From Mustelus asterias (Eukaryota): 64,000 nucleotides of DNA. The first letter of the stretch is position 1. Each line of letters opens with the position of its first letter. Shown piece after piece: positions 6,795 through 64,000 of this stretch. The stretch covers positions 682,001-746,000 of the forward strand of contig NW_027590154.1 of the NCBI RefSeq assembly GCF_964213995.1, written 5' to 3'. The translations under genes were made by a program, and so were the position numbers. The notes beneath the pieces were generated by a model, which did no database searches, had not been told where the DNA came from, and was given only the letters and a program-made list of their open reading frames with translations.

Positions 6795-8344
6795 AGACAA
6801 GTGATCGGTTCCAGCTTTATTTCAGACTCAGTTGAAACAAAAATAAGACGTTTTAGTTGTTCAATTAAACAACAGCCTGTTCCATTTGATTACTACCAAA
6901 AGCCTGTCTATGTTCGCAGAAAGGAGGTTCGATCTATATTTTCATTTGGAATTCGTGGGGATTTTTCTTCTGATCGCAATGCATTGCTGGGCACGATCAA
7001 TGATCCAATCCAAAGTACGCATGAAATGGGGATGCCTGTTTCTCAAAATCCTCCATCTATTATAGTTAATAGGGGGAGAACATACATCGACAACCCTGCA
7101 AAGCCCAGTGTATACAATGTTGTTTCAACTCACATATGTAATCTGATTGTAAATTCAAAGGAGACAAAATGGATGCCAGTCATTTGGAAAACATACTTCC
7201 TCGGTGTGATTTGTACATGAGTGCAAGAATGAACCCTGGCCAACGATTTCAAAAAGTCCACACCACAAATTACGAGTATCAGATATCCAGTAAAGCAACC
7301 CCCAAAGAGGTCTTCAAAGTTTGCCATCTGTGAAAGCGCTTCAGCAAAGCGCATATTCAACTACTTAGAAAGGACATCACCAATAACTCTATCAGATGCA
7401 TCACCCACCACCAGAGTTTCAACCGGCCAGGAAACGCACAAGCTGTTGGCTCAAACATCATCCATCGAGAGCATTCCGAAAAGAAAAACACGTTTATCTC
7501 CAGAAGTATTGCCTGCACTCACTCCCAGGACAAGTTGCAAGTACAGAATAACAATGACTCCCGTACAACATCGGTTGAGTGCTGGACACTTCTCAACTTG
7601 GGAGGCAGAAAACAATGAAGTCCTATACTACATGCAGAAGACCAGTGGTGGTGATATCTAAGGATAAGGCAGTTGCTCCAACACCTCATCAAGAAGATCC
7701 AGTCCAAATGAGCAGACATAAGATGCATGAAACCTGACTGTCTATTTCTCGAAATCCTCCACCTGATGCACCATCCACCACCACAGTTTCAACCGGCCAG
7801 GGAAAGCGCAAGCGTTTGGATGAAACACCATCCATCGAGAGCATTCCACAAAGAAAAATGAGTTTATCTCCTAAAATATTGCCATCACTCACTCCCAGGA
7901 CAAGTTGCAAGTACAGAATAACAAAGACTCCCGTACAACATCGGATGAGTGCTGGTCACTTCTCAGCTTGGGAGGCAGGAAACGATGAAATCCTATACTA
8001 CATGCAGAAGACCAGTGGTGGTGATGACCAATCTGAGGATAAGGCAGTTGCTCCAACACCTCATCAAGAAGATCCAATCCAAAGAACGCATGAAATGGGG
8101 ATGCCTGTTTCTGGAAATCCTCCACCTGATGCACCACCCAACACCAGAGTTTCAACCGGCCAGGAAAAGCGCAAGCTGTTGCATCAAACACAATCCATCG
8201 AGAGCATTCCAAAAAGGTTTGGTTCTGCCTTTCAATTATCCTAATGAACAATGTTTGCATCTTCATAGCTGCTGACAGATAAAGTTAATAAAATACACAT
8301 TCAGTTGCCTACAACAGTTAATAAACATTTGCATTACTAAAACA
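6795..8344 (+). pseudogene. Retroposed mRNA copy (processed pseudogene) of an unrecognised gene with ~121-codon internal repeats
   Basis: 11-bp TSD AAACAGGTTTC (6784-6794, 8345-8355), AATAAA at 8287 and 8320, A-rich remnant from 8339. Long + frame broken by TGAs (7218, 7230, 7735) and one 5-bp deletion (~7655). Confidence 0.7.
7400..8215 (+). repeat. Tandem ~365-bp repeat (2.2 copies) inside the retrocopy
   Basis: gtttcaaccggccagg recurs at ~7416, ~7786 and ~8149; the units translate to near-identical peptides. Confidence 0.9.
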
Positions 8345-8891
8345 AAACAGGTTTCTCATCAGTGTGACTGCGCTGGTGTTTCCGCAGGTTGGCTAACCGA
8401 GTGAATCCTTTCTCACACTCGGGGCAGGGGAATGGCTTCTCCCCAGTGTGAACTCGCTCATGTGCCAGCAGGTTCGATGAGTGAGTGAATCCCATCCCGC
8501 AGTCAGAGCAGAGGAACGGCCTCTCCCCAGTGTGAACTCTCCGGTGGTTCAGCAGGTTGTATGAATGAGTGAATCGCTTTCCACAGTCAGAGCAGATGAA
8601 CGGCCTCTCCCCGGTGTGAATTCGCTGATGTGTCACCAGACTGGATGACTGAGTGAATCCCTTCCCACACACGGGACAGGTGAACTGTCGCTCCCCAGTG
8701 TGGTTTCGCCCATGAGCTTTCAGTTCAAATGAGTAACTGAATCCCTTCCCACAGTCCCCACATTTATAGGGTCTTTCTCCAGTGTGAACGTGCTTGTGTT
8801 TCAACAGGCCAGATGATCGGCTGTAGCCTTGTCCACACTCAGAGCACGTGTACGGTTTCACCCCACTCTTAACAGTGCTTTTACCTTCCAT
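8337..8891 (-). CDS. C2H2 zinc-finger protein, 6 fingers, truncated by the retrocopy
   Basis: ATG ([16 protein letters not shown]) at 8891, six CxxC...HxxxH fingers with TGERP/TGEKP linkers, splice acceptor tttcacag at ~8994; the stop lies within the inserted sequence. Confidence 0.8.
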
Positions 8892-9699
8892 GTTCAAATT
8901 CTGATGATACTGAGGTTCTGATGAATTGGGCGACTCTCAGATCCTGATGTGATGTTCAAATTTCCCAACTGCAAATCCTCAACTTCCAATACCCTGTGAA
9001 ATTGATTTAAAACAGAAAAAAAGAGAGTGAGAGAGAACCCACAAAACTCAAAGGCAAGTTGTGAAATTGAGCTGAATGAATCTGGTAATTTGTGGAGCTG
9101 GTACTAGGAAAAGATGACCATGAAAACAGCTGGATTGTCATAAAAACCCAACTAGTGTCCTTCAGGCGAGGAAACCTGCTCATGCAGTCTGGGCCTACAC
9201 CAGGTCTGAACCAACACAAGACTCTGGGATCAATGAGGGGAGCAAGGAAGAGAAAGATAGAGAGGTAGGAGCAGGAAGTATTGAAGGCGAGGCTTTTATG
9301 TATCTCCAACTCGACCCGAGCTTTGAAGGAATCATTAGCTCACCCACCTAGAAGGTCCAGAGCATCAGGTGTGTGTGAACATGAACACTTCCAGGTTCCC
9401 CTCCAAGTAACACACCATCCTATCATGTCTGACATCCAGTGCTCGTTGAGCAGAAATGTCCTCCAATTCAATACTGGGAAGAGGAAAGCCACTGTCTTCA
9501 GTGCTTGCAACAAAATCCACTCCTCTCTGTTGTAACTCTTTGAGGCTGAACCAGACAGTTCATAAGCTGGTTGTTAAATTTCATCCCAAGCTGAGGTTCT
9601 GATTACATATCACTAAGATTATTATATTAACACCTATAGCAGAGCTGGAGTTATTTTGCAATTCAGCAGAAACAAACCCAAATGAACTGGTTCAGTCTG

Positions 9700-10670
9700 A
9701 ATATGATTCATGCCAAAATCCAATCACTGCAGTTACTTGGAATTTGTTGGTGTTTCAGCAGCCCGGATAAGGCAATATATCCCTTCCCACAACAGGAGCA
9801 GGTGAACTGCCTCTTCCCAGTGTGACTGCGTCGATGAGTTTCCAACTTGGATTGATATTTGAGTCCCTTCCCACAGTCCCCACATTTAAGACCATAAGAC
9901 ATAGGAGCGGAAGTAAGGCCATTCGGCCCATCGAGTCCACTCCACCATTCAATCATGGTTGATTTCAACTCCATTTACCCGCTCTCTCCCCATAGCCCTT
10001 AATTCCTCGAGAAATCAAGAATTTATCAATTTCTGTCTTGAAGACGCTCAACGTCTCGGCCTCCACAGCCCTCTGTGGCAATGAATTCCACAGACCCACC
10101 ACTCTCTGGCTGAAGAAATTTCTCCTCATCTCTGTTCTAAAGTGACTCCCTTTTATTCTAAGGCTGTGCCCCCGCGTCCTAGTCTCCCCTGTTAATGGAA
10201 ACAACTTCCCTACGTCCATCCTATCTAAGCCGTTCATTATCTTGTAAGTTTCTATCAGATCTCCCCTCAACCTCCTAAACTCCAATGAATATAATCCCAC
10301 GATCCTCAGACGTTCATCGTATGTCAGGCCTACCATTCCTGGGATCATCCGTGTGAATCTCCGCTGGACCCGCTCCAGTGCCAGTATGTCCTTCCTGAGG
10401 TGTGGGGCCCAAAATTGCTCACAGTACTCCAAATGGGGCCTAACCAGTGCTTTATAAAGCCTCAGAAGTACATCCCTGCTTTTGTATTCCAAGCCTCTTG
10501 AGATAAATGACAACATTACATTTGCTTTCTTAATTACGGACTCAACCTGCAAGTTTACCTTTCGAGAATCCTGGACTAGGACTCCCAAGTCCCTTTGCAC
10601 TTTAGCATTTCCATGCCATCTCCCTGTTGTGACTACAATTATGTTCCAAAAGGCCAGATGATTGGTTGAA
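9700..10670 (-). pseudogene. ZNF pseudogene interrupted by CR1 and cut off by a SINE
   Basis: Fingers at 9740-9887 continue at 10606-10670, which is similar to 21705-21770. Confidence 0.75.
9888..10605 (-). mobile_element. CR1 3' fragment
   Basis: ORF2 C-terminus (LYKALVRPHLEYC, ERVQRRFTRMIPG) and 3' tail; CATTT repeated at 9883-9887 and 10606-10610. Confidence 0.92.
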
Positions 10671-10671
10671 A

Positions 10672-11164: not shown

Positions 11165-11520
11165 GCTCCGCCCACTGACCGCGCATGCGCCCTGCACGGA
11201 ACAAAGATGGCGGCCGCGGCACTGGGCCTGATCCCGGATAAAATCCCCGCAGCTGCAAACCCGGGACCCGCAGGCTCTTATTCGGCCCTTGCGGTCTACA
11301 GCGGGTGTTTGTGAAGCCTCCGCTCCCTCCCCACCCCGACTCCCGGCTCCATTCCTCCCTCCACCCCACCGACTCTCACCCGCTAAAAAAATAGCATCTC
11401 CCTCACTCGCAGGGCTCCGAGCAAAGTGACACAACGCATGCGCCAGAGACAGCACCACGCCGGCGTACTGGCCTCCTGTGGAGTGAATAGGGCACTTTCA
11501 CACCCGCAGCGAATGCTGGG
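11165..11520. promoter_or_regulatory. CpG-rich ZNF promoter module
   Basis: GC box, GCGCATGCGC (11181), AAGATGGCGGCC (11204), second cgcatgcgc at ~11435. Confidence 0.65.
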
Positions 11521-11524
11521 TGAT

Positions 11525-12205
11525 AACGCTGCAAGAAAGGATGTCCCGAGGCATGGTACATTGGGGAAACTATGCAGACGCTGCGACAACGGATGAATGA
11601 ACACCGCTCGACAATCACCAGGCAAGACTGTTCTCTTCCTGTTGGGGAGCACTTCAGCGGTCACGGGCATTCGGCCTCTGATATTCGGGTAAGCGTTCTC
11701 CAAGGCGGCCTTCGCGACACACGACAGCGCAGAGTCGCGGAGCAGAAACTGATAGCCAGGTTCCGCACACACAAGGACGGCCTCAACCGGGATATTGGGT
11801 TTATGTCACACTATTTCACATAAATATTTCTGCTTTTTTCCTCCTGAGTCTTTATCATGCGATCCTAGAATCAGAATTTATGTCACACTATTTGTAACTC
11901 CCACAGTTGCGTGGACCTGCAGAGTTTCACTGGCTGTCTTGTCTGGAGACAATACACATCTTTTTAGCCTGTCTTGATGCTCTCTCCACTCCCATTGTTT
12001 TGTTTCTTAAAGACTGGATTAGTTGTAAGTATTCGCATTCCAACCATTATTCATGTAAATTGAGTCTGTGTCTTATAAGTTCTGTTTGTGAACAGAATTC
12101 CCACTCACCTGAAGAAGGGGCTCAGAGCCTCGAAAGCTTGTGTGGCTTTTGCTACCAAATAAACCTGTTGGACTTTAACCTGGTGTTGTTAAACTTCTTA
12201 CTGTG
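11525..12205 (+). mobile_element. Penelope-like element 3' part (GIY-YIG endonuclease and terminal repeat)
   Basis: RCKKGCPEAWYIGETMQTLRQRMNEHR...VGEHF...GLNRD, followed by a terminal repeat with aaataaacctgttggactttaacctggtgttg. Confidence 0.88.
12101..12145 (+). ncRNA. Minimal type I hammerhead ribozyme motif (Penelope-associated)
   Basis: cac-CTGAAGA-A-[GGGGCT cag AGCCTC]-GAAA-GC-TT-gtg. Stem I cac/gtg, 6-bp stem II, palindromic AAGCTT in place of stem III. Confidence 0.65.
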
Positions 12206-12410
12206 ATAACTGCACCATTGAAATCTCAAAGGGTTAATACAAAATAAAATTGTTAACATTTGAGATAAATTAACAAAATATTGTGAATTGGTGATCTGCT
12301 GTACTCCATTTCTGAAAGTTCTGCTGTGGATCCCACACAGAGATATCAAAGCTTTTATACCGTTTCTCCTCTCCTTCCTTGATGGTGCTGATTCTGGCTG
12401 GGTTCAATCG

Positions 12411-14213: not shown

Positions 14214-14219
14214 TTAAAA

Positions 14220-19990: not shown

Positions 19991-19994
19991 ATTG

Positions 19995-20535: not shown

Positions 20536-21836
20536 TCACAATAGTTCCTTGTGAATTCGCTGGTGTTTCAGCAGATTTGATGACTGACTGAATCCCTTCC
20601 CACACACAGAGCAAGTGAACGGCTTCTCCCCAGTGTGAACTCGTTGGTGAGCCTGCAGCGTGTGTGAGTGAGCAAAGTCCTTCCCACATTGGGAACAAGT
20701 GAACATCCTCTCCCCAGTGTGAATCCGTTGGTGGATTGCTAGGTTGGATGATTGACTGAACCCCTTCCCACACTGGGAACAGATGAACGGTCTCTCCCCA
20801 GTGTGAACTCGCTGGTGTGTCCACAGATTGCCTGAGTGTGCAAATCCCTTCCCACACTGGGAGCAGATGAAAGGCTTCTCCCCAGTGTGAGTTCGCTGGT
20901 GTGCCAGCAGGTGAGATGAGTCAGTGAATCGCTTCCCACACTGGGAGCAAGTTAACGGCCTCTCCCCAGTGTGAACTCGCAGGTGTATCAGGAGGTTGGA
21001 TGAGCGAGCAAATCCCTTCCCACACACTGGGAGCAAGTGAATGGCTTTTCCCCAGTGTGAACTTGCTGGTGTAATGTTAGGTTAGATGACTGACTGAATG
21101 CCTTCCCACAAACAGAACAGCTGAATGGTCTCTCCCCAGTGTGGGTCCTCTGGTGTATGTGTAAGCTGGATGACTGAGTGAATCCTTTCCCACACTGGGA
21201 GCAGATGAACGGCCTCTCCCCAGTGTGAATTCGCTGGTGTGTCAGGAGGTTGGCTGAGAGCGCGAATCTCTTCCCACATTGAGAACAGCTGAATGGCCTC
21301 TCCCCATTGTGAACGCGCTGGTGTTTTGTTAGCATGGATGATGCTTTGAAGCCCTTCCCACACACAGAGCAAGTGAATGGTCTGTCCTCACTGTGAATTC
21401 GCTGGTGTTTTGCTAGGTTTGATGACTGATTGAATCCCTTCCCACACACAGAGCAGGTGAATGGTTTCTCCCCCGTGTGAGTTCGCTTGTGCAATGCTAG
21501 GCTGAATGACCGATTGAATGCCTTCCCACACAGAGAGCAGGTGAATGGCCTCTCCTCAGTGTGAGTCCTCTGGTGTATATGTAAACTGGATGACTGAGTG
21601 AATCCTTTCCCACAGTGGGAGCAGGTGAATGGCCTCTCCCCTGTGTGACTACGTTGATGAATTTCCAGCAAGGATGGGGATTTGAATCCCTTCTCACAGT
21701 CCCCACATTTCCACAGTTTCTCTCTGTTGTGACTGCAATTATGTTCCGAAAGGTCAGATGATTGGTTGAAGTCTTGTCCACACACAGAACACTTGTACAG
21801 TTTCTCTCCACTGTGAATGGTGCTATTTTCTTCCAT
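20536..21836 (-). pseudogene. 15-finger C2H2 ZNF with one 2-bp frameshift in finger 10 (alternatively a 9-finger protein)
   Basis: ORFs 20988-21842 and 20536-21036 join if one CA is removed from cccacacact at ~21020; [15 protein letters not shown]; acceptor at ~21946. Confidence 0.8.
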
Positions 21837-22591
21837 GTTCAAAATACAATGATATTCAGGTTACAATAAATTGGCCGACTCCATAAGGTACTGATACCAG
21901 GCTTGGTTTCAGTTTCCAAACTGCAAATCCTCCTCTTCTAATACCCTGTGAAATTGAATTAAAACAGAAAAAGGGAGTGAGAGAGAACCCATAAAAACAC
22001 AAAGGCAGGTTGTGAAATTGAGCTGAATGAACCTGGTAATTTGTGGGGACAGCACGAGGAAAAAGTGACCATGAAAACGGCTGGATTGTCAAAAAACTCA
22101 ATTGATTTCCTAATGTCCTTCAGGGAAGGGAACCTGCCATCCAGTCTGGGCACTATGGGAAAAGACAGAGAGAAATAGGAGAGATCGGGAATGAAGGAGA
22201 GGGATTTTATACATCTACAACTCAATGAGAACATTGATAGAATCTCCCAAACCCTCAACCTCCACCACCTCGAAGGACCAAGATAGCAGGTAAATGTGAA
22301 CATCATCAACTCCAAGTTCCCCTCCAACTCATATCCTGACTTGTCTGATATCCAGTACTAAAAAACAGAAATTTCTTTCAAAAAATACTGGGAAGTCTGA
22401 ACCCATTGTGTTCAGTCCCCACTACAAACTCCACTCCCTCACCAACAACTCTATCCCTCTTCCTGGCAATTGGCTGAAGCTGAACCGGCTGTTCACAACC
22501 CTGGTGAAATATTTCACTCTAGGATGAGCTTCCAGCCACATATCCACATCATCATCAAGACTGCTTATTTCCAGCTTATTTCCACCTTCAT

Positions 22592-22905: not shown

Positions 22906-22960
22906 CCACATGTCAGTGCCATCGCCCGACTCCAGCCCAGTCTCAGCTCATCTGGAACTC

Positions 22961-23179: not shown

Positions 23180-23960
23180 GGGCTTCCCTCTCCGATCACA
23201 ATCCCTGCCGGCCTCCCACATGCAGCCTCAATGGCGGCAGTCAGCCCGGGTCAAACACTACAAGCTGCCGCTCCATTTGGTACAAAGGGGGGGACCGGGA
23301 AGTTCATTTCCGGGGTTTGGGTTTGAACAACATGTTTACAAAGTCTCTCCACCCACCCGCCATATTTATCATTCCCCGCGCGCCGCCCTCTACCTCGTAT
23401 TGATCTCGCTTCCAAATTGAAACCGTCCGTCGCCATTACCCGCACTGCGCATGCTTCAGGTCCCGCCCCTCATTCACTCCGATTGGTTGGAGGACCAGCT
23501 GCTCCCGCACTGTCCTCCAGCCCCGCCCCCTCTTCCTATTGGCCCGGAGCTGCCGTCAATCAGCCCCCGGGTATTGTGATGTGGAGCATGCGCAGTGTGT
23601 GTATGCAGCCAGTGAGTAAGTGCCGGGTGAGCGGGAAGGATGGCGTCGGAGGGAAAGAAATCAGTGGTGTCGGCCACAAAAACCAGAACAGAGGCGGTCG
23701 TGTTAAATATCAAGCGGGTGAGTAACGTCTGAGTGCGGAAGGGTGCTGGAGCCGGTGGGTGTGTGCCGATGTTTCAGATAATCCTCGATAGAGGCCTCAA
23801 TCCCGGAATGAGAAGCAGCCGGTTCAACGGTTGAAAGACCCGGATACCGACCGCCATCTTTGTAGGGGGCAATGTGTAGAAAAGCGCATGCGTAGCGCCA
23901 TCTTTATCAGTAGCAGTGCACCAGCGCGCGTGCGCAGTGCTCCCTTCAGCAGGAGGACTG
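23180..23960. promoter_or_regulatory. CpG island, probable bidirectional promoter for ZNFs 21836(-) and 25341(+)
   Basis: NRF1-type TGCGCATGC sites (23446, 23586, 23884), GC boxes, ATTGG boxes, CGCCATCTT (23852, 23896), GTGAGT donors (23612, 23718). Confidence 0.75.
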
Positions 23961-24741: not shown

Positions 24742-25340
24742 ATGATTTACAGTTTGGCCACATTATGAACACACCTTCCTCGGCCATGTACTCTGAGTGG
24801 GACTGGAAACCAGAGCTTCTGACTCAGAAGAAGGGTCACTCCCCACTGCACCACATCTTCACAGTGCACAATCCAGACTAATAAATCTAACAGGAAAACA
24901 GGAGACATTTCTTTTCACAAACAGTTGTTAAAATGTGGAACTGACTGGAAGCAGTTGAGACAGATAACTTAGATTTTTTCAAAAGGAAACTAGATGAGAA
25001 TGAGAGAAAAGAGAAGCTGAAAGGCTGAGATGAGGTTAGCAGAATGGGAGGAGACTCGTGTGGAGTAGAAACTCTGTACAGACTAGATTGCCCGAATGGC
25101 CTGTTTGTGTATTATATCGTCTATGTAATTCTTTGTGAAATTATTTTGCAGGGTAATGGAAGAGGAGGATTTGCAGTCAGGAAAAACAAACCAAACTTTG
25201 TGTCACAATTGGAAAGTCAATTCATCAGGATGTGAAGATTTGTACACCTGAAGGGACTTAATTGACTGTCTCAGCAGGAAGCTGGTGAGAGTCTGTAAAC
25301 CTGCTCTTCCTGTGGGAAGGGATTGATACAGTTGGTAAAC

Positions 25341-42958: not shown

Positions 42959-42959
42959 G

Positions 42960-43084
42960 ATTATTGACAGGCTATCGGGTGTAGGCGGGATGCAGATTTG
43001 AGCTCACTATCAGATCAGCCATGACGTTATTAAATGGCGGAACTGGCCCGTGGGGCTGAATGGCCTATTGCTGCTCCTTGTTCA
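42960..43084 (+). mobile_element. CR1 3' tail inserted at the ZNF start codon
   Basis: gatcagccatga...aatggcct...gctcc; CATG present on both sides. Confidence 0.75.
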
Positions 43085-44009
43085 CATGGTGCAGGTGTCC
43101 TCCTGTCTCTCCAGGTTATATAATCAGTTGAAACCAGGTCTACACAAAGAACACGAGTACGGTGTCTACCTGATGTAAATGTGCTATTTCTTTTCACGCT
43201 GTGTGACTGGTTAAAGCTCTGTTCCAGCTGACTGTGGAAAAATAACTGAGATGTCTGTGTCTCGGGGCTTTTCCAGTCACACTGATGTTGAATAATTTCC
43301 CAAAGACAAAATAGGCAAACGTTTCTCCTTCCACATTCATTGGCCTTTGATATTCAGATCCTGAAGAATCATGTGACACTGTCAGATCCCGAGACGTTTG
43401 GTTTGAATCGCCCGTCTGCAGATATTCTGGAAAAGGAGTTTACATTGAATTACTTTGAATACACAAGACACAAACAAGCCATTCAGTTTAATTCTTTATA
43501 CTTGACACATCTTCTCCTGTCCCACAGACCTCATCTCAGCCTTTCAGTTGATTTTTCTATTTCTTTTTCTCTCGTGTGTTTCGCACATTTCCTTTTGAAA
43601 CAATCTCAGCACTTTCCTCAACTCATTTCGATGGTGATTCTAAACCTGTGAGTGAAGAAATTTGTCCTTATCGCCTTCTTGGATTTATTAGTAACTATCT
43701 GGTATTTATGACTCTTTGTTTATTGATCATTCCTTCTTTTGGACTCTGTCACAAGTGGAACATTCTCTCCACAATTCCCCTGTCCAAGCCACTAATAATT
43801 TGAAAGACTTTTATCAGGTCACTGCTCGATAGGAAAAAACTTCAATCCATTTAACCTTTCCTGAAAGCTGTAATCTCTGTTTACAAAAATCATCACAGTC
43901 AATGCAGAATAGAAATCACAGAGAGACAAACATTTCTCTTGGGGTTGAGTTTTCTGTGTGTAAATCGTCAACTTGTAACCGTGTGTAAAAGCAGTTTTCA
44001 AACATCCAT

Positions 44010-44479: not shown

Positions 44480-45545
44480 ACTGGGGATGTTGGGGCCTCC
44501 AGCGGGTGTTTGTGAATCCTCCCCGCCCACCTCCCAGGGTTTCCTTCCTTCCCAGAGATCAGAACCCTCATTGATTTGAGGCCAAAGTGTAACCTCTTAT
44601 TTATTGTCCCCCTCCCCCATCCTCTGATGTGAACCATCCTCCAGTGGCTGAGCCAGGATGGGGCCGTTAACCTGGGTCTGTTCCCGGGAGGGAGGGAGGG
44701 AGAAGCCCCGCAGCTGCAAACCAGGGAGCTGACAATGATTCTGAAGGGTTTGTGGATCCACAAAGTGTTTCCAAATCCTCCTCAATGTCCAGCCACCGGT
44801 TTCAGCGCTATCCCTGCGATAAAGCCGGGGCCTGCGGCCTAGGCCAGAAGTTGGTGCTGTTTCCAGTGCAGCCGTGGTTTCCATTCCTATCCTGTGCTCA
44901 CAATCTCCTCCCGAACCCTCCCCAACACCATGACTGACACTGAGCATGCTCAGAGCGCACACCCACACCACCTGATGTGGAGGTGCCGGTGTTGGACTGG
45001 GTGAGTCACCTGATAAAGGGGCGGAGCTCCGAAAGCTCCTGATTCCAAATAAACCTGTTAGATGTGAACCTGGTGTTGTGACTTCTTCCTGTGCTCACCA
45101 CACCTGCGCAGTGCGTTCCCAGGCTCCCCGGCGCCTGATCATCTTTGCGCATGCTCCACTCCCAGCCTGGACCCGCCTCTCATTTAGTCCGATTGGTTGG
45201 AGGACCAGCCGCCCCCGCTCGGTTCTCCAGTCCCGCCCCCTCTTCCTATTGGTCCGGAGCTGCCGTCAATCAGTCCCCGGGCATTGTGATGTGGAGCATG
45301 CGCAGTGTCATTGCTGTCCTTGGCGCTTGTTTGTCCCGGAGAAGCGGAGTCAGCGTTAGGCGGTGGCTGGGAGGATTTGGAAACACTTTGTGGATCCGCA
45401 GGCGGGAAGGAGCTCGAGCCGGCGGGTTTTCAATGGGAATTTTAAATGGCGCGGATCCAGAGCCCGATAGAAAACCGGAAACATAAATGGATCCGGGCGG
45501 TGAGGCTTCATAAACACCCGGTGTCGGCCAGATGCCGGATCTCGG
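44480..45545. promoter_or_regulatory. CpG island, probable bidirectional promoter for ZNFs 42958(-) and ~52150(+)
   Basis: Cassette 45146-45304 closely resembles 23443-23597; AAATGGCG at ~45444. Confidence 0.72.
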
Positions 45546-45549
45546 GCCA

Positions 45550-45848: not shown

Positions 45849-46106
45849 AATCCCTCAATTTGCGAGGCAAAATCCTCAGACGTTAACATCGGCCATCTTT
45901 ATTAAGGGCAAAACCAAATGGATAATCCTCAACAAACAAAACATCAGAGATAGAGTTTGTTGTGAAATCAGTGGGTTGTTGTAAAACAGGAGGTCAGAAT
46001 TATAGCCAACATAGAACATAGAACATAGAACATTACAGCGCAGAACAGGCCCTTCGGCCCACGATGTTGCACCGACCAGTTAAAAAAAAAACTGTGACCC
46101 TCCAAC

Positions 46107-48926
46107 CTAAACCAATTTCTTTTCGTCCATGAACCTATCTACGGATCTCTTAAACGCCCCCAAACTAGGCGCATTTACTACTGATGCTGGCAGGGCATTC
46201 CAATCCCTCACCACCCTCTGGGTAAAGAACCTACCCCTGACATCGGTTCTATAACTACCCCCCCTCAATTTAAAGCCATGCCCCCTCGTGCTGGATTTCT
46301 CCATCAGAGGAAAAAGGCTATCACTATCCACCCTATCTAAACCTCTAATCATCTTATATGTTTCAATAAGATCCCCTCTTAGCCGCCGCCTTTCCAGCGA
46401 AAACAATCCCAAATCCCTCAGCCTCTCCTCATAGGATCTCCCCTCCATACCAGGCAACATCCTGGTAAACCTCCTCTGCACCCTCTCCAAAGCCTCCACA
46501 TCCTTCCTGTAATGTGGGGACCAGAACTGCACACAGTACTCCAAGTGCGGCCGCACCAGAGTTGTGTACAGTTGCAACATAACGCTACGACTCCTAAATT
46601 CAATCCCCCTACCAATAAACGCCAAGACACCATATGCCTTCTTAACAACCTTATCTACTTGATTCCCAACTTTCAGGGATCTATGCACACATATACCTAG
46701 ATCCCTCTGCTCCTCCACACTATTCAAAGTCCTCCCGTTAGCCCTATACTCAACACATCTGTTATTCCTACCAAAGTGAATTACCTCACACTTCTCCGCA
46801 TTAAACTCCATCCGCCACCTCTCGGCCCAACTTTGCAACCTGTCTAAGTCTTCCTGCAAACTACGACACCCTTCCTCACTGTCTACCACACCACCGACTT
46901 TGGTGTCATCAGCAAATTTGCTAATCCACCCAACTATACCCTCATCCAGATCATTAATAAATATTACAAACAGCAGTGGCCCCAAAACAGATCCCTGAGG
47001 TACACCACTTGTAACCGCACTCCATGATGAATATTTACTATCAACCACCACCCTCTGTTTCCTATCCGCTAGCCAATTCCTGATCCAATTTCCTAGATCA
47101 CCCCCAATCCCATACATCTGCATTTTCTGCAGAAGCCTACCATGGTGAACCTTATCAAACGCCTTACTAAAATCCATATATACCACGTCCACTGCCCTGC
47201 CCCCATCCACCTCCTTGGTCACTTTCTCAAAAAACTCAATAAGGTTAGTAAGGCACGACCTACCTGCCACAAAACCATGCTGACTATCACCTATCAATTC
47301 ATTACTCTCCAAATAACTATAAATCCTATCCCTTATAATTTTTTCCAACATCTTGCCGACAACAGAAGTGAGACTCACCGGTCTATAATTCCCGGGGAAG
47401 TCTCTGTTCCCCTTCTTAAACAATGGGACAACATTCGCTAACCTCCAATCTTCTGGTACTATACCAGAGGCCAACGACGACCTGAAGATCAGAGCCAGAG
47501 GCTCTGCAATCACTTCTCTTGCCTCCCAGAGAATCCTTGGATAAATCCCATCCGGACCAGGGGATTTATCTATTTTCAGACCCTCCAGAATATCCTGCAC
47601 ATCCTCCTTATCAACTGTAATACTGTCTATTCTACTCCCTTGCAACCCAGTGTCCTCCTCAGCTATATTCATGTCCCCTTGCGTGAACACCGAAGAGAAA
47701 TATTGGTTCAATGCTTCACCAATCTCCTCCGGTTCCACACATAACTTCCCTCTGCCATCTATAACTGGCCCTAAACTTGCCCTAACCAACCTTCTGTTCT
47801 TGACATACCTATAGAACGCCTTAGGATTCTCTTTAACCCTATCCGCCAAAGTCTTCTCATGTCCCCTTTTAGCCCTTCTAAGCTCGCTCTTCAACTCCCT
47901 CTTAGCCAATCTAAAGCTTTCTAGTGCACTACCCGAGTGCTCACGTCTCATCCGAACATAAGCCTCCTTTTTCTTTTTAACCAACAAAGAAACTTTTTTG
48001 GTGCACCACGGTTCCCTAGCCCTACCAATTCCTCCTTGCCTGACAGGGACATACCTATCACAGACTCGCAGTAGCTGCTCCTTGAAAAAACTCCACATGT
48101 CGGACGTTCCCAGTCCCTGTAATCTCCTAGTCCAACCTATGTTTCCTAATTCTCTCCTAATAGCCTCATAATTACCCTTCCCCCAGCTAAAACCACTGGC
48201 CCGAGGTTCATGCCTATCCCTTTCCATCACTAAGGTGAACGTAACCGAATTGTGGTCACTATCACCAAAATGCACACCAACTTCCAAGTCTAGCACCTGG
48301 TCTGGCTCATTTCCCAGCACCAGATCCAATATAGCCTCACCTCTAGTTGGCCTGTCTACATACTGAGTCAAAAAACCTTCCTGCACGCTTTGAACAAAAA
48401 CTGACCCCTCTAACGAGCTAGAGCTATAACAATTCCAGTCAATATTAGTCAAGTTAAAATCCCCCATAACAATTGCCCTATTACTATCACTCCTAAGCAG
48501 GATTGACTCCGCAATCCTTTCCTCAACCTCTCTAGAACTTTTAGGAGGTCTATAAAAGACTCCCAACAGGGTGACCTCTCCTCTCCTATTTCTAATCTCC
48601 GCCCATACTACCTCAACAGATAAGTCCTCATCAAACCTCCTCTCTGACACTGTGATACAATCTCTGACCAATAATGCTACCCCTCCCCCTCTTCTACCTC
48701 CTTCCCTACTTCGACTAAAACATTTGAACCCCGGGACCTGCAGCATCCATTCCTGCCCCTGCTCTATCCATGTCTCTGAAATAGCCACAACATCGAAGTC
48801 CCAGGTACTGATCCACGCTGCAAGTTCACCCACTTTATTGCGAATACTCCTGGCATTGAAGTATACACATTTCAAACCCTGCTCCACCCCACCTCTGCAA
48901 TGCCGTGCATTGCAGTCCCCATCCAT
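46107..48926 (-). CDS. CR1 ORF2: APE endonuclease and reverse transcriptase (939 aa)
   Basis: Uninterrupted; YFNARS, ISETW, YRPP, GDFN, SDHN, QHGF, DFSKAFD, GVPQGSVLGP, FADD. Confidence 0.95.
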   Translation of the reverse strand: MDGDCNARHCRGGVEQGLKCVYFNARSIRNKVGELAAWISTWDFDVVAISETWIEQGQEWMLQVPGFKCFSRSREGGRRGGGVALLVRDCITVSERRFDEDLSVEVVWAEIRNRRGEVTLLGVFYRPPKSSREVEERIAESILLRSDSNRAIVMGDFNLTNIDWNCYSSSSLEGSVFVQSVQEGFLTQYVDRPTRGEAILDLVLGNEPDQVLDLEVGVHFGDSDHNSVTFTLVMERDRHEPRASGFSWGKGNYEAIRRELGNIGWTRRLQGLGTSDMWSFFKEQLLRVCDRYVPVRQGGIGRAREPWCTKKVSLLVKKKKEAYVRMRREHSGSALESFRLAKRELKSELRRAKRGHEKTLADRVKENPKAFYRYVKNRRLVRASLGPVIDGRGKLCVEPEEIGEALNQYFSSVFTQGDMNIAEEDTGLQGSRIDSITVDKEDVQDILEGLKIDKSPGPDGIYPRILWEAREVIAEPLALIFRSSLASGIVPEDWRLANVVPLFKKGNRDFPGNYRPVSLTSVVGKMLEKIIRDRIYSYLESNELIGDSQHGFVAGRSCLTNLIEFFEKVTKEVDGGRAVDVVYMDFSKAFDKVHHGRLLQKMQMYGIGGDLGNWIRNWLADRKQRVVVDSKYSSWSAVTSGVPQGSVLGPLLFVIFINDLDEGIVGWISKFADDTKVGGVVDSEEGCRSLQEDLDRLQSWAERWRMEFNAEKCEVIHFGRNNRCVEYRANGRTLNSVEEQRDLGICVHRSLKVGNQVDKVVKKAYGVLAFIGRGIEFRSRSVMLQLYTTLVRPHLEYCVQFWSPHYRKDVEALERVQRRFTRMLPGMEGRSYEERLRDLGLFSLERRRLRGDLIETYKMIRGLDRVDSDSLFPLMEKSSTRGHGFKLRGGSYRTDVRGRFFTQRVVRDWNALPASVVNAPSLGAFKRSVDRFMDEKKLV

Positions 48927-48977
48927 GCATCCCTCACTTTCAGCCCCACTACTCAGGATCCCTCCCCCCCCCCCGAA

Positions 48978-49907
48978 TCAGTTTAAACCTCCCTGCATGG
49001 CCTTAGCAAATTTACCCCCCAGGATATTGGTCCCCTTCTGATTAAGGTGTAGACCATCCTTCTCATAGAGGTCACACCTTCCCCAGTACGAGCCCCAATT
49101 GCTTAAGTACCTGAACCCCTCCCTCCTGCACCATCCCCTCAGCCATGAATTCAAACCTTCCCTCTCCCTATTCCTCTCTAAACTATCCCGTGGTACAGGC
49201 AAGAGTCCAGAGATAACCACTCTGTCAGTCTTGGCCTTTAGTTTCCACCCCAACTCCATAAATCCCTGCCTAATATCCCCTTCCCCTATCCTCCCTATGT
49301 CGTGTGTCCCCACATGTACAATAACTTGTGGTTTATCTCCCTCCCCCCTAAGAGTCCTGAATACCCTGTCAGACACATCCCGGACCCCAGCCCCTGGTAG
49401 GCAACACACCAACCCTGAGTCCCTACCTTTAGTTCCGACCCTCCTATCTGTCCCCTTAATTGTGGAGTCCCCAATCACAAGGCCCAGTCTTTTACAGCCC
49501 CTAACCACCTGAGCTTTCTCACTCGGCTCACCCCCAGAGATCTGCTCTCTATGCTCAGTTGATTCCTCCTCAACTGTAGCCTCCAGCACCGAAAACCTAT
49601 TATGGAGGGGAACCGCCCCAGGGGATTGTCTTCCCGATTGCTTCTTACCCCTCCTCCTGGCATTGACCCAAGCCTCATTTCTAGGAGTTACTATTTCTCT
49701 ATAACTCCTATCAACTTCCACCTCCGCCTCCCGAATTATGCGGAGTTCCTCTACCTCCCCCTCCAGCTCCTTTACACGCTCCTCCAGTAGCTGCAATCTA
49801 ATGCACTTCTTACAACTAAAATCTCCTGAAACACTACTGGATTTCCTCACCACATACATCCCACAGGAGATGCAGCATACTGCCTGAACTGCCATCCCTG
49901 AAGCCAT
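48978..49907 (-). CDS. CR1 ORF1: Cys-rich zinc finger/coiled coil plus SGNH esterase-like domain
   Basis: CxxC...CxxC, heptad LEERVKELEGEVEEL, then IGDS, HVGTHD and DGLHLN blocks. Confidence 0.9.
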   Translation of the reverse strand: MASGMAVQAVCCISCGMYVVRKSSSVSGDFSCKKCIRLQLLEERVKELEGEVEELRIIREAEVEVDRSYREIVTPRNEAWVNARRRGKKQSGRQSPGAVPLHNRFSVLEATVEEESTEHREQISGGEPSEKAQVVRGCKRLGLVIGDSTIKGTDRRVGTKGRDSGLVCCLPGAGVRDVSDRVFRTLRGEGDKPQVIVHVGTHDIGRIGEGDIRQGFMELGWKLKAKTDRVVISGLLPVPRDSLERNREREGLNSWLRGWCRREGFRYLSNWGSYWGRCDLYEKDGLHLNQKGTNILGGKFAKAMQGGLN

Positions 49908-50310
49908 TACCAGCAAGAAAAAAAGAAAACAAAAAACTTCCCCACACTTATAATTAGGTTAGAGGAGGATGGAAGGGTGGGATCCTCTACCAGTGTAGAG
50001 GATCGGGTATCTCCTCTGCACCAATTTATAGGGCTAGGGGCCCGAGAGAAAAAAAAAAAACTACTACTGAGGGGGAACCACCCAGGTAACTGACTTTTAA
50101 AGTTAAAATAAAAACCCTTCCCAGACTCCTTTGCTGCCCACTTCTAGTTTTCACTTTAAACTTGAAAAACTGCTGTTAAAGTAAAGGCCAAAAAAATACA
50201 CACACTAGCTGACTAATTAAATAAATAAACAATTCAATTAATCCAATTAATCTCTTACCAGCACTGCTGCTTTTCAATCACCCCTCTCAGCTTGCTCCAG
50301 TGGATCAATG

Positions 50311-51345: not shown

Positions 51346-52146
51346 TTAATTAGTCAGCAGGAAGAGAACCAGAAAGCAGAATGGGCCCTGAGACTGAAAC
51401 CAGGTTTAACTTAGTTAGAGAGGGCGGTTCAGAGAAACCCCCTTCACAATTTCTCATCAAATCTCGAAACAGTCAGTTCTGGACACAAAGTTAACATCTG
51501 CTATTCTGACTCATCGGGTCAGGGTGATTCAGATTAATGTTTTCTCATGTGTTATGAATGAAGTGAATCATCAAAACTACCATCTCTAGTTGTACACATT
51601 TTTTAAGAGGAAACTGAAATAATTATCTGTCAATTTATTTGGATTTCAGTTCAGGGAGGAGGGAGAGTGTGTGGGATGGGGATCTGCAACTTTGGGGGTT
51701 CGAGAGGAAAAAGTTCCAGAGAAACTAGAATTGTCTGTTGAGAATTTCTATCCTGGACTGTCAGTGATGACTTTTATTGATGGTTTTTACAGCTATTAGA
51801 AGTTGAGGATTGTAGACGGGAATCTCAAACCAGACATCACATGAAGATCTGACAGAATCACTCGATTCATAGGACCTGGATATCATCGTACTTGGAAAGT
51901 GGAAGGAGAAATGTTTGTTTGTTTTGTCTGTGGGAAAAGATTTCAAACATCGGTGTGACTGGAAAAGCACCAAGACACACGCACACCCGAGTGAGAGTGT
52001 TCCAGTGAACTGACTGTGGAAAGAGCTTTAACACAGCCTGAAAATACATCACCATTCACAGTGAGGAGAAACTGTACACGTGTTGTGTGTGTGGACGAAG
52101 CTTCAACTGATCATCAACCTGGAGAGACATGATGACACCGACACCA

Positions 52147-52820
52147 CAGAGAAACCGTGGATATGTGGGGACTGTGGGAAAGCATTCACTTGCCCATCCA
52201 AACTGGAAACTCATCGACGCACCCACACTGGGGAGAGACCCTTCACCTGCTCCATATGTGGGAAGGATTTCACTCAGTCATCCAACCTAGCATTACATCA
52301 GCGGGTTCACACTGGGGAGAGGCCGTTTAGCTGCCCTCTGTGTGGGAAAAGATTCATTCAGTCATACAATCTAGCGTTACACCGGCGGGTTCACACTGGG
52401 GAGAGGCCATTCACCTGCTCCGTGTGTGGGAAGGGATTCATTAATTCCTCTAACCTAGTGGCACACCAGCGAGTTCACTCGGGGGAGAAACCATTCAGCT
52501 GCACTGACTGTGGAATGAGCTTTAGGCTTTCATCTACCCTGCTGAAACACCAGCGAGTTCACACTGGGGAGAGGCCATTCAGCTGCACTGACTGTGGAAA
52601 GAGCTTCAGACACTCAGGCAGTCTCACTGTACACCAGCGAGCTCACACTGGGGAGAGGCCATTCACCTGCTCCATGTGTGGGAAGGGATTCACTGATTCA
52701 TGCCAACTGCTGAGACATGAACGAGTTCACACCGGGGAGAGGCCGTTCACCTGCTCCGAGTGTGGGAAGGGATTCATTGATTCATCTCAGCTGCTGAAAC
52801 ACCAGCGAGTTCACAAGTGA
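52147..52820 (+). CDS. 8-finger C2H2 ZNF whose family start codon reads ACA; start uncertain
   Basis: Eight intact fingers; ACA GAG AAA CCG TGG occupies the position of ATG GAG AAA CCG TGG in paralogs. Confidence 0.6.
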
Positions 52821-59658: not shown

Positions 59659-61600
59659 TCAGTCCTGGATGTCATTACCAGCAGCAATAACAGCAGAATC
59701 TAATCCCTGCAGACACTTGTCAACTTTCTGGTGGGTAAGATGGTGGGTTGACTGAGTGAATCCCATCTCACACTCAGAGAAGGTGAACGGTCTCTCTCCA
59801 TTGTGAGTGTGTTGGTGTCTCAGCAGGTGGGGTGAGTGAGAAAATCCCTTCCCACACTCAGAGCAACTGTACGGTTTCTCCCTGGTGTGAATGTGCTGGT
59901 GTGTTCGCAGGTTGGATGAGCGAGTGAATCCCTTTCTACAGTCGGAGCAGGTGAACAGTCTCTCCCTGGTGCGAACTTGCTGGTGTCTCAGCAGAATACT
60001 GGAGGTCTTAAAGCTCTTCCCACATTCAGAACATTTGAAAGGTTTCTTATCCAAGTGAACAAGTTGGTGTGATCTGAGGCCGGTTAAATAAATGAATCCT
60101 TTTCCACACAAGAAACAATGTGAACTCGCGATGTTTCTGGAGGCTGGATAACAGAGTGAATTCCTTCCCACACATCCTGAATGGCCTCTCCTCGTTGTGA
60201 AATCGCTGGTGTATCAGCAGATCACTTGTGGTTTTATAACTCTTCTCACATTCCGTACATTTGAAAGGTCTGTTATAAATGTGAACCAGTCGATGTGTAG
60301 TGAGGTGGGATGATCGTGTGAATCCCTTCCCTCACACAGAGCAGGTGAACGGCCTCTCCCCAGTGTGAGTGTGTTCGTGTTCAATGAGGTTCTGTGATTG
60401 GTTAAATAACTTCCCACAATGTGAGCAACTGAACTGTCTCGCAATGTGAACAATCTGGTGCTTGACAGGTCCTCAGAGCTTTTAGAATTGTTATCACTGT
60501 CAAGCCTCTCTTCAATGTGGACTTGCTGGTGGGTCAGCACGGGTTAAATCACGGGTAGATAGTTTTCTGATCGATAAGGGAATTAGGGGATATGGGGAGC
60601 AGGCGGGTAAGTGGAACTGATTCGCTTCAGATCTGCCATGATCTTGTTGAATGGCGGGGCAGGCTCGAAGGGCCAGATGGCCTACTCCTGCTCCTATTTC
60701 TTATGTTCTTATGTCAGCAGGTGGGATGATTGAATGAATCCCTTCCCACACACGGAACAGGTGAATGGTCTCTCCCCAATGTGACTGTGGCGATGCATTT
60801 CCAGCAGAGATGGATAATTGAATCCCTTCCCACAGTCCCCACATTTTCAAGTTTGTTACACAGAATGTGGTGGGTGCCTGGAACTCGCTGCCGGGGAGGT
60901 AGTGGAAGCAGATACGATAGTGAGTTTTAAGGGGCGTCTGGAAAAATACATGAATAGGATGGGAATAGAGGGATATGGTCCACGGAAGGGTAGGGGATTT
61001 TAGTTAAGTCGGGCAGCATGGTCGGTGCAGGCTTGGAGGGCCGAAGGGCCTGTTCCTGTGCTGTAGTTTTCTTTGTTCTTTGTTCCATGGTTTCTCCATG
61101 ATGCCAGTATCCTTGTGTCTCTCTTGGTTAAATGATCCGTTCAAGCCTTGTCCACACAAAGAACTTGTGTATCCTTTCTCAGTCAGGGAATCGAGGGTCA
61201 TGGGGATAAGGCAGGAAAGTGGAGCTGAGGATTATATCAGATCAACCATGATCTCATTGAATGGTGGAGCAGACTCGATGGGCCCAATGGCCTAACTCTG
61301 ATTCTAGGTCTTCCCATCCTTTGGCTCGCTGCTGTGAATAGTGTGATGTTTTTTTCAGGCTGTGTAACTGGTTAAAACTGTTTCCACAGTCAGCTCACTG
61401 GAAATTGGGTATATGCTTGTCTCGGCGCTTTTCCAGTCACATTGATGTTTGAAATCTTTCCCCACCATCAGACCTGACAAACATTTCTTCTTCCACATTT
61501 AACGGTCGATGATATTCAGGTTCTGATGAATGGAGTGACTTTTTCAGATTTTGATGTGATGTTTGGTTTCAGTTTCCCATCTGTGTACCTTGTAAGAGAC
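59659..61600 (-). pseudogene. ZNF pseudogene, paralog of 31168-32091, with three CR1 tail insertions
   Basis: Frameshifted fingers; inserts at 60540-60712 (TSD GTCAGCA), ~60847-61082 and ~61181-61325. Confidence 0.85.
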
Positions 61601-62194
61601 ATTGGCAGAGTCAGTATCACTGTCAGTACAGGATAGAAATTCAGAACAAGCATTTTTAGTTTCCATGGAATATTCTTTTCTCTCTTGTTTCCCCAATCTT
61701 GTGGTCCAATCAAACTTCCATTTCAACTGAACCAGAACTTTGTTTCCAGTGTCTATGAGACACTCTGTACCCTGAGTTGTGGAAGATATCAAGTGTTCCA
61801 GTCGACACCGCACACTCCCTCTCCAGAACCATTCGAGCATGGACAAGACCACGGAAGAGCTTGTCCGACAGCCAAGTTACCCCCTGCCAATCTACAAATT
61901 ACTGTTTTAACCAGCCGCAAGAGCAGGTCCAGGAAAAGATCTTCTGACCTCCCTAGCTGCTCCACACTGGGCAGCCAATGAATAGGAGTGTGGGACAAAC
62001 CAGAAGTGTAATTAAAAATGGAGAAGCAGCTCCTTCAAGGACTGCAACCTCTCACACTGAATATAAACATGGCTCATGGACTCCTCCCGGCTGCAAAACA
62101 TCAGCTGCAGCTTGAGACTGGGTGAAAATGTTGGAAAACCTAATTATCTGATGGCTGTATCAGACAGGGCTGTATCAGCCCCCATACTGTGGCG

Positions 62195-62545
62195 TCAAGA
62201 ATACCCCGCCGCATGCGCTCCTCGTTGAACCAAGATGGCGGCCGTCGGCCTGGAATTGGGCCTCGGAGGGGAAAAGATCCGGAGCTGCAAACACGGGAGC
62301 GGCAGAGTCTCAATCGGGGTTTGAGGCACTCACCAGGTGTTTAGAAACTCTCCCTATCCAGAGCCCGCTCGCTCAGAGTTTTCTCTTCCTTCCCCGCTGC
62401 AAAGAGGCAACCCCATCGCCATTACTGACAGTGCGCATGCTCCAAATATGGGGGGGTTAATGCGCCTGTGCGGTGCCTGCCTCTGGTGTGAATAGGGGAC
62501 ATTCAGCACCGCGGGGAATGCTGAGTCAGGACTCTGCCATTGAAA
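62195..62545. promoter_or_regulatory. CpG-rich promoter between ZNFs ~61100(-) and 63741(+)
   Basis: CGCATGCGC (62210), AAGATGGCGGCC (62232), TGCGCATGCTCC (62433); paralogous to 34480-34860. Confidence 0.7.
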
Positions 62546-63740
62546 GTCATTATTAGTAGCTCGTGATATTTTTACTATTGTGTGTAGATTGGGGGGCGGG
62601 GACGGATTCGATAAATTAATTAAAGGAGGAACCAAGTTATACAGAAATCTATGTGCACAGATTTTTCATTATCCATCAGAAAGAAAGGGAGTGGTAATAG
62701 GTGCAGAATTGTAAATGTCCCAAAGTCTTCCACAAGCAGCAGCAATTACAGCGGAATCCAAGAGCTCCAGTCAAATGTAAACTCAGAAAATGGTGTGACT
62801 GAGTGAAGTATTTCACTGAGTAATTGTAGGATTGTATTCTCATGGATATTCCAGGTCATTTCTCAAAATCATTCAATGGAGGTGGGTGTCATTGATTAGA
62901 CCAGCACTTACTTCCCATCCCTAATTGCCCTTGAAAAGTTGTTGGTGAGCTGCCTTCTTGAATCGTGGTGGTCGTGGGTTTTGTTTCATTGCAAGTTTCA
63001 TATAGATTTGCAAAAAAATAAAACTTCTTAGGATGTGGACATTACTCACAAGGCCCAGGTTACTGTCCTGAATTACTATCCTGCACTGACAGTGATATGC
63101 TACCAATCACCAGTTATCCTTTGTGATGGTGATAGTTGGCCTTTTTCTTAAACCTCTGCAGTCCATATAGTAAAGGTGCTCCCACAATGCAACAGTATTA
63201 GGATTTTAACCCAGTCACGTTGAAGGGACAGTGATATTTGTCCAAGTCAGGGAGTTGTGTGGTTTTCCCATGTCCCAGCTGCTCTGGTACTTCCAGGTGG
63301 GGAAGATTGTGGGCTGAGGAGATTCTGCCAAAATGCTGGTTGAGTTGCTGATGTATAAAATCTCTTTCCATCACCCTCCTCCCTGACCTCTTCCTCTTCA
63401 CACATAAAGGCTGGATTTTTATTGTGGGCTCTGAAGGGGTGAAGGGTTCCTTTCCCTCAGTGCACTGGTGAACAGTTTGAAGCTTTATGACAATCCAGCA
63501 GCTTTCATATCCTTTTTCCTATTCCCAATCCCACAATTTACCAGATTCATTCAGCTCAATTTCACATCTTGCCTTTGTGTTATAATGGCTTGTCTCTTAT
63601 GTTTCCCTCTTTCTGTTTTCAATTCATTTTTCAGGGGATTAGAAGGTGAGGAATTACAGACAATTGTAAATCAAGGATTACATCAAGATCAGACAGAGTG
63701 CCTCGATTCATCAGGATCTAAATATCATAGGCCATTAAAC

Positions 63741-64000
63741 ATGGAAGAAAAAAGCACCATTCACAGTGGGGAGAAACCATACACATGTGTGTGGACAAGG
63801 CTTCAAACGATCGTCTGGCCTGTCAAGACACAAGCGCAGTCACATCAGGGAGAGACCGTATAAATGTGGAGACTGTGGGAAAGGATTCAATTTCCCAGTT
63901 GACCTGGAAAATCACCGACGCACTCACACTGGAGAGAGACCTTTTAGCTGCCCTGTGTGTGGGAAGGGATTCACTCAGTCAGCTGGCCTTTTGATACACC
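63741..64000 (+). pseudogene. 5' part of a ZNF with a frameshift in finger 1; runs off the window
   Basis: [16 protein letters not shown] followed by an apparent 5-nt deletion; fingers continue in another frame ([21 protein letters not shown]). Confidence 0.7.

What the first reader, a model, noticed from the sequence alone, without database searches (positions are those of the whole stretch)
8337..64000. Cluster built from repeated head-to-head ZNF pairs sharing one CpG promoter
Seen: a (-)ZNF / CpG promoter / (+)ZNF layout recurs as 21836<-23.5k->25341, 32091<-34.6k->35687, 42958<-45.2k->52147 and 61100<-62.3k->63741. A probable fifth case is 8891/10670<-11.3k->15730 (remnant). Each gene has its fingers in one exon behind a homologous acceptor. 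Established: mammalian KRAB-ZNF clusters often use bidirectional promoters. Inference: the duplication unit here is a co-regulated gene pair, evolving by birth and death in a KRAB-less family, possibly in TE control.
Basis: partly seen in the sequence, partly recalled or inferred. Interest (0 to 1): 0.7.

Follow-up and report, generated by a model that had tools for sequence, protein, structure and literature searches.

The report
Back-to-back shark zinc-finger genes, shuffled partners
Four pairs of zinc-finger genes sit back to back here, likely in a shark genome, but they were copied inside larger blocks and have changed partners, so the pair itself is probably not the unit of duplication, and only two of the five predicted promoters look symmetric.

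Summary
The layout is real: four (-)ZNF / CpG island / (+)ZNF arrangements lie at the stated places; the fifth (15730) is only an acceptor remnant without fingers. The genes are finger-only C2H2 genes with homologous acceptors; 3 of the 8 partners are intact. The 'pair is the duplication unit' idea fails. Recent copies are multi-gene blocks that include pseudogenes and LINE pieces (14 of 15 copies of the 23.5k island also carry the 34.6k island). Left partners do not form a clade (p-AU 1e-92), and partners are swapped next to the promoter in 4 of 15 and 3 of 17 copies. Two promoter types occur: a mirror-like CCAAT/GC/NRF1 core (23.5k, 45.2k; 374 exact motif copies genome-wide) and a one-way-looking ZNF143-site/NRF1/exon-1/YY1 module (11.3k, 34.6k, 62.3k). 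Across 1.06 Mb, strand switching is only modestly above chance (62 of 101, expected 51, p 0.02). Bidirectional transcription and TE control are untested. The scan reported this family and its head-to-head layout before, on other DNA of this genome.

The parts
8337..8993 (-). Finger-only ZNF exon (acceptor 8993, ATG 8891, 184 aa, 6 fingers), intact
9624..10670 (-). Second, broken ZNF gene split by a CR1 piece and cut by a SINE; tandem with 8891
11170..11530 (-). Type-B promoter module pointing left (NRF1-like site, short exon 1 with donor, YY1+NRF1 motif); ZNF143-like site interrupted by a Penelope-like insert
   Evidence: motif names recalled, SBS rule from PMC3082894
15712..15930 (+). Acceptor/5'UTR remnant with no fingers (the proposed fifth right partner)
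20540..21945 (-). ZNF exon, ATG 21836; frameshift after 9 fingers in this copy, 432 aa/15 fingers in 7 of 11 other copies
23446..23597 (.). Type-A promoter core: CCAAT and GC boxes between two outward-facing AGCATGCGCA sites; donor-like sites at about 23440 (-) and 23612/23616/23718 (+)
25152..26681 (+). ZNF exon, ATG 25341, 446 aa, 14 fingers, intact; omega 0.48 across copies
28560..29625 (-). Decayed ZNF pseudogene carried along in the duplicated block
31168..32441 (-). ZNF exon, ATG 32091, 307 aa, 10 fingers, intact; omega 0.43
34492..34855 (-). Type-B promoter module pointing left; ZNF143-like site 34812-34829, NRF1-like site 34737, donor about 34683, YY1+NRF1 motif 34492-34530
35534..36619 (+). 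ZNF exon, ATG 35687, 310 aa, intact; omega 0.38 and frameshifts depleted; no recognisable own first exon
41810..43486 (-). ZNF exon, ATG 42958, in-frame stop after 3 fingers
45146..45296 (.). Type-A promoter core, 91% identical to the 23.5k core, with unrelated arms
46010..50260 (-). Full-length young CR1-like LINE (ORF1 326 aa GDSL, ORF2 956 aa endonuclease-RT) in the intron of the right partner
51793..52820 (+). ZNF exon with 8 fingers, no ATG before the first finger
59659..61652 (-). Broken ZNF gene (ATG 61099), interrupted by a CR1 tail and a second insert, frameshifted
62210..62550 (-). Type-B promoter module pointing left, homologous (66%) to 34.6k with an identical 18-bp stretch over the ZNF143-like site
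63635..64000 (+). ZNF exon, ATG 63741, frameshifted (40 aa) in this copy; array runs past the window end

Best explanation
This is a piece of a very large cluster of finger-only C2H2 zinc-finger genes, likely in a shark, in which genes often sit back to back around a single predicted CpG promoter, and which grows by copying multi-gene blocks while promoter cores, first-exon arms and finger exons are re-paired, likely by ectopic recombination. Shown: each gene has one finger exon behind a family acceptor with the start codon inside that exon; recent copies are blocks of 16 kb or more; partners differ between copies with the junction in or beside the promoter. Inferred: type-A cores (23.5k, 45.2k) start transcription both ways; type-B modules (11.3k, 34.6k, 62.3k) are built for the left gene, and the gene behind them would use reverse initiation from the same NRF1/ZNF143 sites, or a distant promoter, or be silent. 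A shared promoter would let a newly placed finger exon be expressed, which would explain the modest excess of head-to-head genes without any conserved, co-regulated pair.
For: Blocks: 10 of 10 fetched copies of the 23.5k island align collinearly over 9-19 kb at mostly 95-98%, pseudogene and LINE pieces included; 14 of 15 copies have the 34.6k island 11-15 kb away; 15 of 18 copies of the 62.3k island have a 45.2k-like match 12-18 kb away among the listed hits. Older units: within 464 kb of C122 no duplicated chain holds two finger arrays; those that touch a gene hold one, with or without its promoter. Partner change: left partner of 23.5k differs in 4 of 15 copies, left side of 34.6k differs in 3 of 17 with junctions at 34570 and 34673 inside the island; 24 of 40 listed hits to the 23.5k island stop at the end of the core; 23 A cores show 10 back-arm and 7 front-arm types in 15 combinations, cores still 85% alike when both arms differ. 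Trees: the four left partners are rejected as a clade (p-AU 1e-92); 32091 and 61100 are sisters (96/90) with homologous promoters while their right partners fall in different deep clades; distances among copies of 21836 and 25341 do not correlate (Mantel rho 0.06, n 12). Promoter polarity: B points along the genes in 18 of 18 tandem settings; donor pattern in front 19 of 20, behind 4 of 20 (background 0.16); CpG per 200 nt 12.5 against 4; A cores are CpG-rich on both sides. Function: omega 0.34-0.48 in four genes, structural residues 0.17; frameshifts depleted in 32091 and 35687.
Against: Pairs do travel together recently: both partners are kept in 15 of 15 fetched copies of the 62.3k pair and 11 of 15 of the 23.5k pair, and the 42958/52147 family pair recurs 3 times in the sample. 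32091 and 35687 co-vary across copies (Mantel rho 0.56, p 0.001, n 12), the only one of 10 segment pairs that does, which fits a pair-sized tract at 34.6k. 35687 is under constraint although it lies behind a one-way-looking module, so type B may be two-way after all. The A-versus-B difference in divergent placement is not significant (11:7 against 8:15, p 0.12). Only 12 of 23 A cores have an NRF1-like site at both ends and only 5 of 23 show a front donor within 200 nt. Some copies on short contigs may be uncollapsed haplotypes. Synonymous changes exceed the neutral estimate in two genes, so gene conversion may bias omega. No transcript start was observed; the lineage is inferred.
Confidence: 0.7

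Rival explanations
1. The head-to-head pair is the unit of duplication and a co-regulated module.
For: Both partners kept in 15 of 15 copies at 62.3k and 11 of 15 at 23.5k; 32091 and 35687 co-vary across copies; one promoter element in most divergent gaps; excess of strand switches.
Against: Copies extend over several pairs plus pseudogenes; 30 divergent pairs fall into 25 family combinations and 8 of the 15 small multi-member families have members outside any pair; left partners are not a clade; no single-pair duplicate was seen in 464 kb.
Confidence: 0.12
2. Head-to-head placement is a by-product of inversions and block copying; every promoter serves one gene, and genes behind a promoter are silent or are reached by splicing from a distant first exon.
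For: Excess over chance is small and not significant for intact genes (p 0.07); divergent gaps are not shorter than tandem or convergent ones (medians 5.7, 6.4, 5.6 kb); 4 of 7 genes behind a lone B module are broken; 11 of 39 tandem gaps have no recognised promoter, so exon-1 sharing is possible.
Against: A cores are flanked by outward-facing sites and CpG-rich arms on both sides; both partners at 23.5k and at 34.6k show purifying selection with one island between them; human NRF1, NFY, SP and ZNF143 motifs act on both strands (10.1101/2023.06.27.546584, passages).
Confidence: 0.18

Closest known systems
KRAB-ZNF clusters of lobe-finned vertebrates (e.g. the human ZNF398/ZNF425 divergent pair)
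   Same: Clustered tandem C2H2 arrays in one 3' exon, rapid gain and loss, CpG promoters; ZNF143 binds many human KRAB-ZNF promoters (PMC3627581, passages); one human pair shares a bidirectional promoter (PMC4839217, passages).
   Different: No KRAB or other N-terminal domain: the start codon lies in the finger exon behind an in-frame stop; head-to-head placement involves 59% of arrays; three reusable promoter types.
Vertebrate bidirectional CpG-island promoters (NRF1, NFY, YY1, GABPA, ZNF143)
   Same: The same motif set (PMC3082894, passages); the B element meets that paper's SBS rule in 14 of 20 cores against 1.4% in shuffles.
   Different: Here one core is repeated hundreds of times (374 exact 22-mers) and joined to changing arms and genes; no transcription start was measured.
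Zebrafish FiNZ-ZNFs (PMC10547256, abstract and passages)
   Same: Lineage-specific, clustered, non-KRAB ZNF expansion in a fish.
   Different: No N-terminal domain here; no positive selection seen at contact residues among recent copies; TE repression untested.

Membership tests
KRAB-ZNF | KRAB domain in frame with the fingers | tested here: not met
   Pfam on 7 finger-exon frames gives only finger families; in-frame stop between acceptor and fingers in 45 of 50 intact genes, including the 4 intact window genes. A genome search with PF01352 found nothing but its control was silent too, so that search is uninformative.
KRAB-ZNF | Tandem C2H2 array with H-C linkers in a single 3' exon | tested here: met
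KRAB-ZNF / FiNZ-ZNF | Binds and represses transposable elements | not testable with these tools
   No binding or knock-down data; contact-residue omega 0.46 against 0.50 for other residues.
FiNZ-ZNF | N-terminal FiNZ domain | tested here: not met
   No coding sequence can precede the finger exon in frame in 45 of 50 intact genes; no FiNZ profile was searched.
Bidirectional promoter | Two TSSs on opposite strands within 1 kb (PMC3082894) | tested here: inconclusive
   No RNA holder on record; contigs of four guessed-RNA runs from other organisms gave no listed joint from the 34.6k island to the 35534 acceptor.
Bidirectional promoter | CpG-rich core with NRF1/NFY/SP/ZNF143-type motifs and first-exon features on both sides | tested here: inconclusive
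   Met for 23.5k and largely for 45.2k; not met for 11.3k, 34.6k, 62.3k, whose back side is AT-rich without a consensus donor nearby.
Pair as duplication unit | Left and right partners form separate, congruent clades; duplicates bounded around one pair | tested here: not met

The most novel reading that the evidence does not exclude
A shark zinc-finger superfamily is built like a plug-board: a promoter core present in hundreds of near-identical copies is a recombination hub at which first-exon arms and finger exons are swapped, so any finger exon landing on either side is expressed at once, and a one-way-looking ZNF143 module can also drive the gene behind it. Promoter sharing would then be the engine of birth in this family rather than a sign of co-regulated pairs.
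Probability: 0.3. Interest if true: 0.6.

Novelty: new variant of a known kind. Interest (0 to 1): 0.36.

Why it matters
Cartilaginous fishes are reported to have lost KRAB families (PMC8455134, passage), yet this genome holds a ZNF cluster over many megabases at about one array per 10 kb in the sampled parts. How such a family is expressed and multiplied without an effector domain is open. The result here narrows it: blocks and swapped partners, not fixed pairs, and two promoter architectures that one CAGE experiment would tell apart. The family and its head-to-head layout were already noted several times by this scan, so the increment is the refutation of the pair unit and the promoter typing.

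Tried and rejected
RNA evidence: no RNA holder listed. Laying contigs of 4 of the 14 listed runs on 34320-36100 gave mostly paralog and repeat matches and no listed joint from the island (111 joints not shown); this is no evidence either way, and the 23.5k pair stayed untested by reads. Protein homology search with 25341 returned generic ZNFs of many vertebrates and did not place the lineage; the Atlas search with the LINE ORF1 gave only 'Chordata'. Rfam: 0 matches; the one ARAGORN hit (29130) overlaps a SINE copy. KRAB genome search uninformative. Idea that the YY1+NRF1 motif marks the start of the opposite gene: rejected, since in tandem settings it points along the served gene in 21 of 24 cases. 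Shorter spacing of divergent genes: not found. Positive selection at contact residues: not found among 9-15 recent copies per gene. Paper searches: 'KRAB zinc finger + head-to-head + segmental duplication + gene cluster' and 'ZNF genes + bidirectional promoter + duplication + chromosome 19 + divergent' gave 0; the shark-directed searches listed no title on a shark ZNF cluster (25 of 123, 15 of 40 and 15 of 23 listed). The library lacks most subscription papers and no supplements were read, so this does not show that it is undescribed.
Full report
Setting. The window is G000:C122:682001-746000 in a 3.68-Gb assembly. CR1-like LINEs and a tRNA-type SINE are abundant. That these repeats look like shark elements is recalled, not shown by a call; protein searches did not place the lineage. 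Earlier notes of this scan call the genome shark-like and describe the same finger-only, often head-to-head family on other pieces.

Observation. Only 3 of the 8 partners are intact (25341, 32091, 35687); 21836, 42958, 52147, 61100 and 63741 are damaged in this copy, although 7 of 11 other copies of 21836 are whole. The fifth case has no right-hand fingers and an intervening minus-strand remnant. In 45 of 50 intact genes of the wider sample an in-frame stop lies between acceptor and fingers, and 44 of 50 have a Met before the first finger: the proteins are fingers only.

Is head-to-head more than chance? I mapped 105 arrays of 5 or more fingers in 464 kb of C122 and three 200-kb stretches of C71; the C71 stretches were chosen near earlier hits, not at random. 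Strand switches: 62 of 101, expected 51.3, p 0.018; without the window p 0.034; intact genes only 37 of 60, p 0.073; after removing repeated family pairs 55 of 90, p 0.022. So there is a modest excess, with long same-strand runs as well. A promoter element was found in 29 of 31 divergent, 28 of 39 tandem and 2 of 31 convergent gaps; most divergent gaps hold one element. Divergent gaps are not shorter.

Promoter types. Iterated profiles gave three types. Type A (23.5k, 45.2k) is a 150-bp CCAAT/GC core between outward-facing AGCATGCGCA sites; a 22-mer of it has 374 exact copies in the genome and its reversed control 0. Type B (11.3k, 34.6k, 62.3k, all pointing left) runs ZNF143-like site, NRF1-like site, short exon, donor, then a YY1+NRF1 motif about 200 nt on. 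It meets the SBS rule of PMC3082894 in 14 of 20 cores (1.4% in shuffles), has a donor pattern in front in 19 of 20 and behind in 4 of 20 (background 16%), and points along the genes in 18 of 18 tandem settings. An 18-mer over the site is exact in 36 places, copies of the 34.6k and 62.3k islands as far as the listed places can be matched, though those islands are 66% alike overall. Weak points: only 12 of 23 A cores have both end sites; front donors were seen in 5 of 23 within 200 nt, probably because the common front exon is longer (one search shows a donor-like site further out; not counted); A is not significantly more often divergent than B (p 0.12). Names of motifs other than SBS are recalled. 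In human data NRF1, NFY, SP and ZNF143 motifs act on both strands and YY1 and the donor are directional (10.1101/2023.06.27.546584, passages).

Duplication unit. The 23.5k island has 15 other close copies. Ten were fetched with 10 kb each side: all are collinear multi-gene blocks with the 28.6k pseudogene and LINE pieces. 14 of 15 have the 34.6k island 11-15 kb away. The 45.2k and 62.3k islands co-occur in another set (15 of 18 among listed hits). Inside 464 kb of C122, duplicated chains hold at most one array. Partners change: 4 of 15 copies at 23.5k have another left gene, joined at the 28-bp tandem near 22957; 3 of 17 at 34.6k have another left side, joined inside the island; in 2 of the 17 the left gene lies outside the fetched stretch; 15 of 15 fetched copies (of 18) at 62.3k keep both. 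23 A cores carry 15 combinations of 10 back and 7 front arms. In a 99-gene tree of the acceptor region the left partners 32091 and 61100 are sisters while their right partners are far apart (the bootstrap had not settled); the four left partners are rejected as a clade among the 10 window genes (group named after seeing the large tree). Across recent copies only 1 of 10 segment pairs co-varies, 32091 with 35687 (rho 0.56); 21836 with 25341 does not. Copies are mosaics, as expected with frequent exchange; the co-varying pair counts against my reading.

Selection. Among recent copies omega is 0.34, 0.48, 0.43 and 0.38 for 21836, 25341, 32091 and 35687 (each p < 0.001), 0.17 at structural residues, 0.46 at contact residues and 0.50 elsewhere (neutral spectrum from a pseudogene and an intron; partly aligned and identical copies dropped, leaving 9-15 per gene; synonymous excess in two genes suggests conversion). 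Frameshift-length indels are depleted in 32091 (0 against 16 in flanks) and 35687 (3 against 21), not significantly in 25341 or 21836, and not in the pseudogene control (some loci entered twice, events counted once per site). So 35687 is likely expressed although it lies behind a B module; how is unresolved.

Mechanism. Shown: gene anatomy, block copying, partner change, promoter polarity, constraint. Inferred: two-way initiation at A cores, recombination at shared cores, reverse initiation or distant splicing for genes behind B. Untested: transcription starts, co-regulation, TE targets.

Comparison. It works like a KRAB-ZNF or FiNZ-ZNF cluster (clustered, lineage-specific, birth and death) but is a member of neither. 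Papers seen: PMC3082894, PMC3627581, PMC4839217, PMC8455134, PMC11603059, PMC10463633 and 10.1101/2023.06.27.546584 as found passages; PMC10547256 as abstract and passages, with no occurrence of 'shark' in its main text; no supplements. Verdict: real layout, partly right reading, a new variant of a known kind, already met elsewhere in this scan.

Noticed in passing
window 46010-50260 (-): Full-length CR1-like LINE with two open ORFs; 100%-identical pieces lie inside a 35687 paralog (L145) and beside 63741 paralogs (L157-L159), so the family is probably active and hits ZNF loci. No target-site duplication of 7 nt or more found.
   Followed up: partly
window 11523-13900 and 44974-45105: Penelope-like pieces (label recalled) interrupt the ZNF143-like site of the 11.3k promoter; a related terminal piece sits in the left arm of the 45.2k core.
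   Followed up: no
window 22960-23179: 28-bp tandem repeat (7.9 copies) at the junction where 4 of 15 block copies change left partner.
   Followed up: partly
window 44751-44781 and 45370-45400: 31-bp inverted repeat: both arms of the 45.2k core carry the start of the same leader type, echoing the mirror-leader note e1-9055795.
   Followed up: partly
window 34900-35500: The AT-rich stretch behind the 34.6k module differs less between copies (about 3-4 changes per 150 nt) than the 35687 coding region and its 3' flank (about 5-15).
   Followed up: no
window 7233-8244 (+): Two open frames of 142 and 168 aa within a 470-bp internal duplication, no Pfam match.
   Followed up: no
window 39631-40163: 23-bp GC-rich tandem repeat, 23 copies.
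   Followed up: no
G000:C122 543200-556800 and 775250-783600 (L017-L018, L033-L034): CpG-rich 7-kb elements, 98% identical, in tandem inside type-C promoters; possibly the exon-1-targeting Tx1 elements of earlier notes.
   Followed up: no
window 51793-52147 and similar 5'UTRs: The non-coding start of the finger exon holds decayed, out-of-frame finger-like sequence.
   Followed up: partly
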